Shown here: positions 12,604 through 13,760 of the stretch, piece after piece
Numbering within the stretch: position 1 is the stretch's first letter
Layout: each line of letters opens with the position of its first letter
UHGV virus genome: UHGV-0118085
Source: a virus
Reading direction: 5' to 3' (one strand)
DNA: 17,017 nt
Program-made: the position numbers and the translations under genes
The notes under the pieces: model-generated
Seen by the model: the letters and a program-made list of their open reading frames with translations, nothing else
Databases searched by the model: none
Told to the model about the DNA's origin: nothing

Positions 12604-12777
12604 TTAGATGGAAACAGTGTCGCCGGGCTGTATTGCTCTGGCGTCACGTTCTGAATAGGTGATCAGATCTGTATTGCTGTAACCCCCCTCACCCAGAACC
12701 TCAACACGAGTTATCCAGTAATTACGGCGCGGGAGCACATCCAGCACCTTTGTCACAACGACCTCAACGGGATTCAT
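12604..12777 (-). CDS. Hypothetical small protein (57 aa), translationally coupled to the methyltransferase
   Basis: Hand-translated as MNPVEVVVTKVLDVLPRRNYWITRVEVLGEGGYSNTDLITYSERDARAIQPGDTVSI. Its ATG (12777..12775) overlaps the methyltransferase stop codon (12779..12777) by one nucleotide (TGATG), with AGGAGG upstream. It is below the ORF-track length cutoff. Confidence 0.45.
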   Translation of the reverse strand: MNPVEVVVTKVLDVLPRRNYWITRVEVLGEGGYSNTDLITYSERDARAIQPGDTVSI

Positions 12778-13760
12778 CAGAACACCTCCTGATCATCAAA
12801 AGCACCAGAGGCAACCATTTCTGAATAGGTCGCATCAGCCATCACAGCACCGCAATCAGGACAACCGCCGCCAGTACGCCCACAACAACCACAAACGCGT
12901 AGAAAGCCGATCACCTCGCCAGCCAAGTTGCGAGATTTGGCCCCTACAGATCGGCGGATTTCGAATGAATTAAGGGTGAACGGGTAGTAAATTTTGCGGG
13001 TTTCCGGGGTATCGCTACCGGAAAAAACAGACAGGCATCCTTCGTTGTTATGAGCGGTAATCAATGACTCAACCAGGTCACGGTGATCATCGACAGTGAA
13101 GGGTTTACCGTACGCGGTAAAATCAGCCGTTTTACTCGCTGGCAGGTAAGGCGGATCACAGTAAATTACTGTGCGCTCAAATATGCGACTAGCAACAGGG
13201 ATGGTGTAACGGAAATCAGCGCAAAGAAACTGAGCACCTTTCTCATATGCTCGTTTTGCAAAGTGCTGGATCTCTGCAACAGGGAAAATTGGCTTGCGGC
13301 GACGACCAAATGGAACGTTAAATTCATTCTTCCCATTCACTCGGTATAAACCGTTATAGCAATGACGGTTTAGATAAAGGAATAATGCTGCAAACTTTAC
13401 AAGTTCACTCTGATAATAAACCTTTCCATCAGAAGTTTTTTTATTATGCTGGGGGAAATCACGATTAAAATCATTAAATTCATTGCGGCATTTATAATAT
13501 GCCTCTTCATTATTACCGCCATCAAATAGAGTAGCAGCGACATCTAGCAACGATTTAGTATTGTTCTTCAATATTGAATAGAAGTTCATAAGCGCTGCGT
13601 TGCTATCACACAGAATATAGGTTTTATAGTCAGTGTTCAGAAAGACGCTACCACTACCTACAAAAGGCTCAACGAGACATTCACCCTTTGGCAAAGCCTC
13701 CAGTACATGAGGCATCGCGCGAGACTTGCCGCCCGCCCAGATCAGAGGGGAGTTAACCAT
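12777..13760 (-). CDS. Dam-type N6-adenine DNA methyltransferase with a Cys-rich C-terminal tail
   Basis: N-terminal SPLIWAGGK...EPFVGSGSV (AdoMet-binding) and catalytic DPPY (nt 13146..13157). I start it at the ATG at 13760 (MVNSP...), preceded by AAGGAG, rather than the track start at 13832. The C-terminus carries [15 protein letters not shown] (nt about 12852..12893). Confidence 0.85.
   Translation of the reverse strand: [327 protein letters not shown]

What the first reader, a model, noticed from the sequence alone, without database searches (positions are those of the whole stretch)
12777..13760. Dam-type methyltransferase with an unusual Cys-rich C-terminal tail, bracketed by overlapping small ORFs
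The catalytic core is a typical Dam/D12-class N6-adenine methyltransferase (DPPY at 13146..13157), but the last ~40 residues carry [15 protein letters not shown] (12852..12893), which looks like a small metal-binding knuckle not found in canonical Dam. The gene is tightly packed: a 55-aa ORF overlaps its start by 8 nt and a 57-aa ORF starts on its stop codon (TGATG). It may be an orphan anti-restriction methylase, and the Cys-rich tail could be a DNA- or protein-interaction add-on.
Basis: partly seen in the sequence, partly recalled or inferred. Interest (0 to 1): 0.45.

Follow-up and report, generated by a model that had tools for sequence, protein, structure and literature searches.

The report
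Prophage Dam methylase with zinc-knuckle tail
This is an ordinary Dam-type DNA adenine methylase gene of a P2-like E. coli prophage. Its Cys-rich tail is a small, conserved, uncatalogued four-cysteine module that also occurs inside RecE exonucleases and other early phage proteins, and the function of that module is unknown.

Summary
Window 12777..13760 (-) encodes a 327-aa Dam/D12 adenine methyltransferase: Pfam E=6e-53, and the AF2 core superposes on E. coli Dam at TM 0.90.

The tail is not a one-off. 115 of the 120 closest homologues, all from P2-like prophages of Enterobacterales, keep CxxC-x5-9-CxxC.

The same ~28-aa module (CxxCGxxGG..CPDCG[AP]VMGDATYxE) sits at residues 517-544 of E. coli K-12 RecE, in the part of RecE whose function is unknown. 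It is also found in DnaQ-type RecE relatives and in small early proteins of Mu-like and P2-like phages. No Pfam model covers it. Between Dam and RecE, synonymous sites are scrambled while 19/27 residues are identical, so it is under purifying selection.

The last residues (E-x-F-stop) are best explained at the nucleotide level. They contain the Shine-Dalgarno GGAGG and a TGATG stop/start overlap for the next gene.

My best reading is an orphan, probably GATC-specific, early-operon methylase carrying a zinc-knuckle adaptor tail. Whether the tail docks to a protein partner is inferred, not shown. Interest is modest: a known enzyme with an undescribed but widespread mini-domain.

The parts
12777..13760 (-). 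Dam-family DNA adenine methyltransferase gene, 327 aa plus stop
   Evidence: Pfam PF02086 E=6.1e-53 over residues 8-264. TIGR00571 scores 227 bits against a cut-off of 115. The identical protein is encoded on natural E. coli contigs.
12906..13760 (-). Catalytic core, aa 1-285, EcoDam-like fold
   Evidence: AF2 with MSA gives pTM 0.80. Foldseek against PDB: E. coli Dam 2g1p/4rtm, E about 1e-24, TM 0.90 normalised to the target. phmmer against EcoDam E=1e-55.
13647..13664 (-). Motif I, FVGSGS (AdoMet-binding FxGxG)
   Evidence: Translation. It aligns to EcoDam FVGAGS. F33, G35 and G37 are invariant in 121 sequences.
13299..13358 (-). DNA-recognition beta-hairpin, aa 135-154 ([20 protein letters not shown])
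   Evidence: Alignment to EcoDam 119-138. Y119, N120, L122, R124, P134 and R137 are kept. Y138 becomes R, and K9 becomes I7 near the N-terminus. The roles of Y119, N120, L122, R124, P134, K9 and Y138 are taken from PMC4417163; the role of R137 is from my own recollection and was not found in that paper.
13146..13157 (-). Motif IV, DPPY (catalytic)
   Evidence: Translation. Invariant in the alignment.
12813..12893 (-). Four-Cys knuckle module, aa 290-316 ([27 protein letters not shown]). Metal ligands are inferred to be C290, C293, C300 and C303.
   Evidence: The four Cys are nearly invariant. The module is homologous to RecE aa 517-544. A profile search finds it in about 10 unrelated protein contexts. 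No Pfam model covers it. AF2 pLDDT is 67 falling to 47, with a short helix at 310-317.
12780..12812 (-). C-terminal tip, aa 317-327 ([11 protein letters not shown]), predicted disordered
   Evidence: pLDDT 37-45. 106/136 Dam-type relatives end in F. Conservation of E-x-F tracks with a coupled downstream gene.
12785..12790 (-). Shine-Dalgarno AGGAGG for the downstream ORF, embedded in Dam codons Q-E-V
   Evidence: Coordinates checked. GGAG is present in 13/13 loci with a T[GA]ATG-coupled downstream gene and in 0/7 uncoupled loci.
13753..13920 (-). Upstream 55-aa ORF of unknown function. Its stop overlaps the Dam start (ATGGTTAA).
   Evidence: PHROG phrog_12723 E=4e-15. 91% identical to an ORF annotated in E. 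coli ES1. Called as a gene in natural contigs.
12604..12777 (-). Downstream 57-aa ORF of unknown function. Its start overlaps the Dam stop (TGATG).
   Evidence: 96% identical in ES1 and 35% identical to phiT5282H gp18. Called as a gene in natural contigs.
10105..12594 (-). gpA replication initiator/nickase, the next gene in the same early operon
   Evidence: Pfam Phage_GPA E=5e-95. Called as 829 aa in natural contigs.

Best explanation
The gene encodes an orphan Dam-family N6-adenine DNA methyltransferase. It lies in the early (replication) operon of a P2-like prophage, now scrambled, inserted next to cpxP in E. coli.

**Core.** The core (aa 1-285) is an EcoDam-like enzyme. It keeps the AdoMet motif, DPPY and the hairpin residues that read the A-T-C part of GATC, so it most likely methylates GATC (inferred). 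It sits between cox and gpA and is translationally coupled to its neighbours. It would therefore be made when the phage starts replicating. The likely effect is to keep newly made phage DNA fully methylated, for protection from restriction and from host systems that read hemimethylated GATC (inferred by analogy).

**Tail, layer 1 (aa 290-316).** This is a rubredoxin-like CxxCG...CPxCG four-Cys knuckle followed by a short helix. It is a portable mini-domain shared with RecE-family exonucleases and with small early proteins of lambdoid, Mu-like and P2-like phages of Enterobacterales. I infer that it binds zinc and acts as an adaptor that tethers these DNA enzymes to a common partner, rather than taking part in catalysis or binding DNA directly.

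**Tail, layer 2 (last codons).** Q-E-V-F-stop is shaped mainly by the nucleotide sequence. It contains the ribosome-binding site and the overlapping start for the next gene.
For: **Enzyme identity**
- Pfam, NCBIfam and PADLOC scores.
- phmmer to EcoDam E=1e-55, with motif and hairpin residues aligned.
- AF2 pTM 0.80, and Foldseek TM 0.90 to EcoDam.
- Contact roles from PMC4417163.

**Operon context**
- cox, small ORFs, Dam, a small ORF and gpA are all on the same strand with overlapping junctions.
- There is no excess of internal promoter- or terminator-like sites.
- The flanks are 100% identical to E. coli.

**Tail conservation**
- 115/120 homologues keep the four Cys.

**Homology to RecE and others**
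- NCBIfam RecE model E=4e-5; PHROG exonuclease families E=2e-8.
- Direct comparison with K-12 RecE: 19/27 residues identical.
- A profile search of 1.84 billion representatives returns only 39 hits. These are Dam, three RecE architectures and several unrelated small proteins.
- 120 IMG/VR loci carry the motif.
- The small proteins sit in Mu-like and P2-like early regions.

**Purifying selection**
- Only 7/19 identical residues use the same codon.

**Against DNA binding**
- 113/126 versions of the module are net negative.

**Coupling cassette**
- 13/13 coupled loci against 0/7 uncoupled loci carry GGAG in the tip.
Against: - No activity, specificity or metal content was measured.
- The first-base-pair contacts of EcoDam (K9, Y138) are replaced (I7, R154), so the first base of the site is not certain.
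- E. coli already has Dam, so a GATC-specific copy is redundant unless dosage, timing or localisation matter.
- AF2 models the knuckle with only low to moderate confidence (pLDDT 67 falling to 47).
- No significant match to any solved zinc ribbon (best E=0.12).
- A basic variant of the knuckle (CGRCGRSGGGNCAYCRPVKRLSTY) in some Klebsiella Dams changes most surface residues. That argues against a single conserved docking partner in all Dams.
- Natural relatives without the tail exist: P0019, and an unannotated Dam reading frame in Yersinia phage vB_YenM_42.18. The tail is therefore dispensable in some lineages.
- No partner was identified.
- The prophage is rearranged, so the gene may never be expressed in this host.
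Confidence: 0.6

Rival explanations
1. The knuckle is a nucleic-acid-binding element, like the C-terminal domain of CcrM or the zinc ribbons of primases and topoisomerase I. It would increase affinity or processivity of Dam on replicating or single-stranded phage DNA, and would do the same for RecE-type nucleases.
For: Every identified host protein of the module (Dam, RecE with PD-(D/E)XK, DnaQ-like exonuclease) acts on DNA. A basic variant (net +4/+5) exists in some Klebsiella Dams. Weak sub-threshold resemblance to TFIIB/Brf-type ribbons.
Against: 113/126 distinct versions are net negative (mean -1.8), and the RecE version has no basic residue at all. The only aromatic residue is one Tyr. 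In RecE the module sits between long acidic low-complexity linkers. No significant match to any DNA-binding zinc-ribbon family.
Confidence: 0.15
2. The acidic, Phe-terminated tip ([13 protein letters not shown]) mimics the C-terminal tip of host SSB (DFDDDIPF-COOH). It would let the methylase dock on, or compete for, SSB-binding proteins at the fork.
For: F at position -6, D at -5 and -4, and a terminal F match SSB spacing (my own knowledge of the SSB sequence). 106/136 Dam-type relatives end in F, and 74/136 fit F-[DE]-x-x-[DE]-x-F. The tip is predicted disordered.
Against: E-x-F-stop co-occurs perfectly with an embedded GGAG plus T[GA]ATG junction (13/13 loci), whatever gene follows, across at least five unrelated kinds. 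It is lost when no gene is coupled (0/7 with GGAG, 1/7 ending in F). The penultimate Pro that is critical in SSB is absent here. Several relatives end at ...GAF or with unrelated tips.
Confidence: 0.07
3. The tail is a purely structural or oligomerisation cap. A zinc site would stabilise or dimerise the enzyme and have no targeting role. Its similarity to RecE would reflect shuffling of a convenient stable mini-fold.
For: Only the four Cys, the Gly-rich loop, P-V and T-Y are kept in every variant, including the basic one. The module begins two residues after the last core strand.
Against: In RecE and the small proteins the module is isolated between disordered linkers or at a free terminus, where it cannot cap a core. 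In most contexts the non-Cys surface (PDCG[AP][10 protein letters not shown]) is conserved from Oceanisphaera to Escherichia despite saturated synonymous sites. That is more constraint than a bare metal site needs. Tail-less relatives appear intact.
Confidence: 0.15
4. The tail is a non-functional remnant or an annotation artefact, for example read-through or low-complexity sequence.
For: AF2 confidence is low over aa 301-327. The prophage is degraded.
Against: The four Cys are nearly invariant across 121 sequences at 53-98% identity. 19/27 residues are shared with RecE although only 7/19 codons are. The exact protein is found in 56 blocks of the public collection.
Confidence: 0.03

Closest known systems
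E. coli Dam (EcoDam; PDB 2G1P, 4RTJ-4RTS)
   Same: Same fold (TM 0.90) and the same order of motif I, hairpin and DPPY. Sequence identity is 36-38% in the structural alignment. Hairpin residues Y119, N120, L122, R124, P134 and R137 are conserved.
   Different: The window protein is 49 aa longer through the Cys-rich tail. The first-base-pair contacts K9 and Y138 are replaced. It does not reach the NCBIfam 'equivalog' cut-off for host Dam (228 bits against 441). It is phage-borne and sits in a replication operon.
Orphan Dam-type methylases of other phages (T4 Dam, PDB 1YFL; phage orphan MTases reviewed in PMC12707154)
   Same: A phage-encoded adenine methylase with no partner nuclease. The presumed role is self-protection of exported DNA.
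   Different: Only 18-20% identity to T4 Dam, and T4 Dam has no zinc-knuckle tail.
Dam of Peduoviridae (Enterobacter phage phiT5282H, Salmonella phage SEN5, Klebsiella prophages)
   Same: Same position just upstream of gpA, same small flanking ORFs, and the same or a related Cys-rich tail.
   Different: 43-55% identity to these named Peduoviridae phages in tblastn. The SEN5 and ES1 tails carry a second Cys cluster (9-10 Cys). The Yersinia phage frame has no tail. None of these has been characterised, as far as my searches show.
RecE / exonuclease VIII of the Rac prophage, residues 517-544
   Same: The module [28 protein letters not shown] against [27 protein letters not shown] has 19/27 identical residues.
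   Different: In RecE the module is internal, between acidic linkers and upstream of the nuclease domain (564-866). [quoted passage not shown] The rest of the two proteins is unrelated.
Rubredoxin-type knuckles and zinc ribbons (TFIIB/Brf, Pfam DZR, Zn_ribbon_3)
   Same: Paired CxxCG and CPxCG knuckles.
   Different: Only 6-7 residues lie between the knuckles. All matches are below threshold: PDB best E=0.12, and Pfam 14-16 bits against cut-offs of 27.
Accessory domains of other maintenance methylases (CcrM C-terminal domain; DNMT1 CXXC and PCNA-binding motif). Analogy from my own knowledge only.
   Same: A catalytic methylase core extended by a small targeting element.
   Different: No sequence or structural relationship was tested or expected.

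Membership tests
Dam family / D12-class N6-adenine DNA methyltransferase (Pfam PF02086, TIGR00571) | Profile score above the curated cut-off | tested here: met
   PF02086 scores 180.6 bits against 22. TIGR00571 scores 227.4 against 114.85.
Dam family / D12-class N6-adenine DNA methyltransferase | AdoMet motif I (FxGxG) N-terminal to catalytic motif IV (DPPY), with the target-recognition hairpin between them (alpha order) | tested here: met
   FVGSGS at aa 33-38, hairpin at aa 135-154, DPPY at aa 202-205.
Dam family / D12-class N6-adenine DNA methyltransferase | EcoDam-like three-dimensional fold | tested here: met
   AF2 pTM 0.80. Foldseek to 2g1p/4rtm E about 1e-24, TM 0.90 normalised to the target.
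Dam family / D12-class N6-adenine DNA methyltransferase | GATC specificity | tested here: inconclusive
   Residues reading base pairs 2-4 (Y119, N120, L122, R124, P134) are conserved. First-base-pair contacts K9 and Y138 are not (I7, R154). The paper notes that the first-base-pair contact is not conserved in the family.
Dam family / D12-class N6-adenine DNA methyltransferase | N6-adenine methyltransferase activity | not testable with these tools
   Needs expression in a dam-minus host and DpnI/MboI digestion or SMRT/Nanopore sequencing.
Host Dam orthologue (NCBIfam NF008152 equivalog) | Score at or above the equivalog cut-off of 441 bits | tested here: not met
   228.3 bits. This is a family member, not the housekeeping Dam.
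Orphan (solitary) methyltransferase | No cognate restriction endonuclease gene adjacent | tested here: met
   The neighbours are 55-aa and 57-aa ORFs and gpA. The best PADLOC model is oMTase, E=3e-75.
P2-like (Peduoviridae) early-operon gene | Located between cox and gpA on the same strand within an int-C-cox...A module | tested here: met
   Integrase, HTH repressor, Cox and GPA Pfam hits. Same layout in phiT5282H, SEN5, ES1 and natural contigs.
Cys4 zinc knuckle / rubredoxin-like metal site | Two CxxC knuckles with four conserved Cys | tested here: met
   C290, C293, C300 and C303 are nearly invariant. 115/120 homologues keep CxxC-x5-9-CxxC.
Cys4 zinc knuckle / rubredoxin-like metal site | Significant similarity to a curated zinc-ribbon family or a solved structure | tested here: not met
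   Pfam gives nothing for the Dam tail. For the RecE version the best is 16.3 bits against a cut-off of 27. PDB profile search best E=0.12.
Cys4 zinc knuckle / rubredoxin-like metal site | Metal actually bound | not testable with these tools
   Needs ICP-MS or a PAR assay on purified protein.
RecE-family internal Cys module (no curated name) | Significant sequence match to the module in RecE-type proteins | tested here: met
   NCBIfam RecE model E=4.4e-5 at model positions 527-554. PHROG 20376 E=1.9e-8. A tail profile hits RecE-type proteins at E=3.5e-10. Direct alignment gives 19/27.
SSB C-terminal-tip mimic | Acidic run ending in Pro-Phe-COOH on a disordered linker, conserved independently of nucleotide constraints | tested here: not met
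   The penultimate residue is Val. Conservation of E-x-F follows the embedded SD and TGATG junction (13/13 coupled against 0/7 uncoupled).

The most novel reading that the evidence does not exclude
The ~28-aa CxxCG..CPDCG[AP][10 protein letters not shown] knuckle is a portable docking domain. Temperate phages of Enterobacterales (P2-like, lambdoid, Mu-like) would attach it to otherwise unrelated early DNA enzymes (Dam, RecE, DnaQ-like exonuclease, small unknown proteins) to recruit them to one host replication or repair hub. It would be a new targeting domain. It would also give the first function to part of RecE's long 'unknown' N-terminal region.
Probability: 0.3. Interest if true: 0.6.

Novelty: new variant of a known kind. 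Interest (0 to 1): 0.35.

Why it matters
The enzyme itself is routine. The tail adds three things.

1. It defines a small, strongly constrained mini-domain that no Pfam model covers and that I found in no paper I could search. It links P2-like Dam methylases to RecE-family proteins, including the RecE used in RecET recombineering. The RecE region upstream of the nuclease domain (residues 564-866) is still described as being of unknown function.
2. If the module is a docking element, it would point to a shared host partner exploited by three different groups of temperate phages.
3. It is a clear example of a protein C-terminus whose apparent 'motif' (E-x-F-COOH) is really a ribosome-binding site and start overlap for the next gene. 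That is a caution for motif hunting in compact phage operons.

Tried and rejected
- **AF2 on the single sequence:** unusable (mean pLDDT 33). It was repeated with a 121-sequence alignment.
- **tblastn of the 41-aa tail against phage genomes:** found nothing, probably because of the low-complexity filter. I used a degenerate DNA pattern instead.
- **First literature search for RecE:** swamped by 'receptor'. One search timed out. Searches for the motif strings, and for P2-like Dam methyltransferase in prophages, found nothing relevant; a search for phage orphan methyltransferases with zinc gave no paper on zinc-bearing phage Dams and only the general review PMC12707154.
- **SSB-tail-mimic idea:** it looked attractive from the peptide alone. 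I downgraded it once the tip was shown to co-occur strictly with an embedded SD and an overlapping start.
- **Clamp-binding motif (QL[SD]LF):** considered and rejected by eye. Most tails have no Q at the right spacing.
- **Recent DNA transfer between recE and dam as the cause of similarity:** rejected. Nucleotide identity is 62% and synonymous codons are scrambled.
- **Archaeal and Burkholderiales pattern matches:** these are TnpB-type or unrelated zinc ribbons that share only CPDCG.VMG. I set them aside as chance.
- **GATC avoidance in the window:** none. 76 observed against 66 expected.
- **RNA families, internal promoters or terminators, repeats:** nothing above chance.
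Full report

Yes. On the minus strand, 12777..13760 is a 327-aa ORF. It is preceded by AAGGAG 7 nt upstream of its ATG. The ORF can be read from an upstream ATG at 13832 (351 aa), but that start has no ribosome-binding site, and the homologues are 311-330 aa.

DPPY is at 13146..13157, as stated. [14 protein letters not shown] is at 12852..12893.

The 55-aa ORF (13753..13920) overlaps the Dam start by 8 nt (ATGGTTAA). The 57-aa ORF (12604..12777) begins on the last base of the Dam stop (TGATG).

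Five Cys in 14 residues is unlikely by chance: P is about 1.4e-5 per window and about 0.004 over the protein. More importantly, the four Cys at 290, 293, 300 and 303 are nearly invariant in an alignment of 121 sequences.

**2. Where is it?**

The window is a P2-like prophage. The genes identified are:
- integrase, an HTH repressor and Cox;
- a run of small ORFs, then Dam and the gpA replication nickase;
- a low-GC cargo gene;
- then portal and terminase on the opposite strand.

The identical Dam protein is encoded on natural contigs with the same layout, inserted next to cpxP. Their flanks are 100% identical to E. coli.

Dam lies inside the leftward early operon. That operon starts at a promoter-like site upstream of cox. 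There is no excess of internal promoter- or terminator-like sites, no Rfam match and no notable repeat.

**3. The enzyme core**

- Pfam D12 gives E=6e-53, and TIGR00571 scores 227 bits against a cut-off of 115.
- The NCBIfam equivalog for housekeeping Dam is not reached (228 against 441). This is a family member, not the host orthologue.
- phmmer against solved structures gives E. coli Dam at E=1e-55. That alignment ends at residue 275, and no solved Dam (EcoDam, DpnM, T4 Dam) aligns beyond residue 278.
- AF2 with a 121-sequence alignment gives pTM 0.80. Foldseek places the model on EcoDam (TM 0.90 normalised to the target, E about 1e-24), then DpnM, then T4 Dam.
- In the alignment, EcoDam Y119, N120, L122, R124, P134 and R137 are conserved. 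K9 and Y138 are replaced by I7 and R154. According to PMC4417163, R124, L122/P134 and Y119/N120 read or open the inner and fourth base pairs. K9 and Y138 read the first base pair, and that contact is not conserved across the family. The role of R137 is from my own recollection and was not found in that paper.

GATC is therefore the most likely target, with some uncertainty at the first base.

No nuclease gene is adjacent, and the best PADLOC model is 'orphan methyltransferase'. GATC is not depleted in the window: 76 observed against 66 expected.

**4. The tail is conserved in its clade**

Of the 120 best database homologues (53-98% identity; Klebsiella, Citrobacter, Enterobacter, Raoultella, E. 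coli), 115 keep CxxC-x5-9-CxxC in the last 80 residues.

The consensus is [42 protein letters not shown].

Named Peduoviridae phages compare as follows:
- Enterobacter phage phiT5282H has the same tail.
- Salmonella phage SEN5 and the E. coli ES1 prophage have a derivative with a second Cys cluster.
- A Dam frame in Yersinia phage vB_YenM_42.18 stops right after the core.
- One cluster, P0019, has lost the tail.

The tail is therefore typical of this sub-clade. It is absent from the characterised Dams and dispensable in some lineages.

**5. The tail is a module shared with RecE and others**

Scanning the whole protein against NCBIfam and PHROGs gave unexpected second hits for residues 288-316:
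- exodeoxyribonuclease VIII (RecE), E=4e-5;
- two PHROG exonuclease families, with E down to 2e-8.

Translating recE of E. coli K-12 shows [28 protein letters not shown] at residues 517-544. This shares 19 of 27 aligned residues with the Dam tail. Only 7 of the 19 identical residues use the same codon, and nucleotide identity is 62%. The similarity is therefore held by selection on the peptide, not by recent DNA exchange.

A profile of 21 tails, searched against 1.84 billion representative proteins, returned only 39 hits with E below 1e-3:
- Dam proteins;
- RecE with its PD-(D/E)XK domain;
- RecE-N-terminal proteins fused to a DnaQ-like (Rv2179c-type) 3'-5' exonuclease;
- nuclease-less RecE relatives;
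- at least five kinds of small proteins (80-335 aa) with unrelated remainders, carrying the module at the C-terminus, the N-terminus or the middle.

About 110 are RecE-type and about 10 are Dam.

In one genome per species, true matches are confined to Enterobacterales (including Plesiomonas) and Oceanisphaera. The archaeal and Burkholderiales matches are TnpB-type or unrelated ribbons that share only CPDCG.VMG.

Two of the small proteins were placed in context. One lies in the early region of a Mu-like prophage, between DUF3164 and GemA. The other lies directly after gpA in a P2-like element.

No Pfam model covers the module. A profile search of PDB sequences gives only insignificant ribbon hits, best E=0.12.

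The literature I could search does not mention it. A 2023 review calls the RecE N-terminal part 'of unknown function' and places the nuclease domain at 564-866. A 2025 survey notes DnaQ-like nucleases encoded in lambdoid recombination modules, and separately 'RecE-2' proteins without a nuclease domain, but not this motif.

**6. What the module looks like**

CxxCG and CPxCG are the classical rubredoxin-type knuckles, so tetrahedral coordination of one metal, most likely zinc, is the straightforward reading (inference).

AF2 gives pLDDT 80 for aa 281-290, 67 for 291-300 and 37-47 beyond, with a short helix at 310-317 (ATYSEMVA). The module is therefore not confidently modelled and is probably flexible relative to the core.

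Of 126 distinct versions, 113 are net negative (mean -1.8), and the RecE version has no basic residue. This argues against direct DNA binding.

A basic variant in some Klebsiella Dams keeps only the Cys, the Gly loop, P-V and T-Y. This warns against assuming one universal partner.

**7. The last residues are a gene junction, not a peptide motif**

The tip GAFDDQEVF resembles the SSB C-terminal tip, and 106 of 136 Dam-type relatives end in Phe.

However, the codons CAG GAG GTG TTC TGA TG contain AGGAGG at ideal spacing from the overlapping ATG of the next gene.

I compared 20 distinct Dam 3' ends:
- All 13 with a T[GA]ATG-coupled downstream gene have E-x-F and GGAG. The coupled genes are at least five unrelated kinds.
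- None of the 7 uncoupled ends has GGAG, and only one ends in F.

The apparent motif is therefore mostly a translational-coupling cassette, and I rank the SSB-mimic idea low.

**8. Most likely function**

*Shown:*
- family, fold, motifs and orphan status;
- operon position and coupling to neighbours;
- conservation and modularity of the tail.

*Inferred:*
- GATC methylation of replicating phage DNA when the early operon fires. This would give protection from restriction and from host systems that act on under-methylated GATC, by analogy with other phage orphan methylases (PMC12707154).
- Zinc binding by the four Cys.
- An adaptor (protein-docking) role for the module. The grounds are its portability among unrelated early DNA enzymes, its isolation between disordered linkers in RecE, its acidic surface, and strong constraint on non-Cys residues across taxa.

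I put about 0.9 on the methylase assignment, about 0.75 on metal binding and about 0.35 on the docking role. The rivals, in order, are a structural or oligomerisation cap, a DNA-binding knuckle, an SSB-tip mimic and a non-functional remnant.

**9. Comparison with what is known, and novelty**

- The core is a member of the Dam family. All sequence and fold criteria are met; activity is untested.
- It is not the housekeeping Dam equivalog.
- The tail fails the membership tests for curated zinc-ribbon families, but it clearly belongs with the un-named RecE internal module.
- Hundreds of near-identical proteins are already in databases, annotated simply as Dam methylases. The gene is therefore not new.

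What is new, as far as I could search, is two things. First, the tail is a discrete, selected mini-domain shared with RecE-family and other early phage proteins. Second, its terminal 'motif' is an embedded ribosome-binding site.

I rate this a new variant of a known kind, with modest interest (0.35).

**10. Caveats**

- No experiment was possible.
- AF2 multimer was unavailable, so no partner could be screened.
- The profile search used 50%-identity representatives and lists only hits above threshold. Rarer contexts may be missed.
- The prophage is rearranged (see items noticed in passing), so expression in this particular host is uncertain.

Noticed in passing
window 7153..9924 (-): A 923-aa ORF at about 30% GC, against about 50% around it. 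It has no Pfam, NCBIfam or PADLOC match and only unknown-function PHROGs. It occupies the slot between gpA and the portal gene. In sister prophages with the identical Dam, that slot instead holds an nSTAND3 protein plus a 179-aa ORF (L129) or three other ORFs (L130). This is a variable cargo hotspot, and the gene may be an undescribed defence gene.
   Followed up: partly
window 192..5749: The prophage is scrambled. ORF 2957..4039 is tail tube (aa 1-54) fused to a tape-measure C-terminus. ORF 4052..5749 is gpU (aa 1-75) fused to the large terminase. Sheath, tube' and U' lie on the terminase strand, while gpD (479..1726) and an ogr-like gene (192..440) lie on the other. This suggests an inversion with ends in U and P, plus deletions. 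No capsid, lysis or baseplate genes were seen in the ORFs examined. The same arrangement occurs in natural E. coli contigs L127 and L128.
   Followed up: partly
L001 2736..3440 (E. coli ES1) and L124 4501..5490 (Salmonella phage SEN5): Related P2-like elements carry a second DNA methyltransferase gene. In ES1 it is an unrelated 235-aa adenine methylase in the cargo slot after gpA. In SEN5 a second methyltransferase gene (about 329 aa) lies directly downstream of the tailed Dam.
   Followed up: no
L133, L136, L139, L142, L145-L147, L150, L156, L159, L162, L164-L166, L168, L171 (ANME-2 / Methanosarcinales MAGs), plus L161 (a candidate division WOR-3 bacterial MAG): Many copies of TnpB-like ORFs whose zinc ribbon reads [18 protein letters not shown]. 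They share nine residues with the phage module, apparently by chance. The element is highly repeated in these archaeal genomes.
   Followed up: no
L153 3948..4403 (Plesiomonas MAG) and L152 2498..3088 (Oceanisphaera submarina): Small proteins of 151 and 196 aa carry a variant of the module in which the first knuckle is C-x5-C instead of CxxC ([27 protein letters not shown]). One is in a Mu-like early region and the other is right after gpA of a P2-like element.
   Followed up: partly
L042, L101, L148, L169 (downstream of Dam): In some relatives the gene coupled to the Dam stop is not the 57-aa ORF. It is a longer protein, for example one beginning MSIIDPRCSGTDTINIVSVSGGKDS (PAPS-reductase-like by eye) or MAKIYIAGPMSG. 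The same GGAGG-TTY-TAATG junction is kept.
   Followed up: no
L123 3330..4469 (Klebsiella phage 3LV2017): The annotated 379-aa 'DNA methyltransferase' starts inside the preceding exonuclease gene. After the core it leaves the Cys-knuckle frame (…GVLRGDVGRNSGACGAW…), which suggests a frameshift or a sequencing or annotation problem in the tail region.
   Followed up: no
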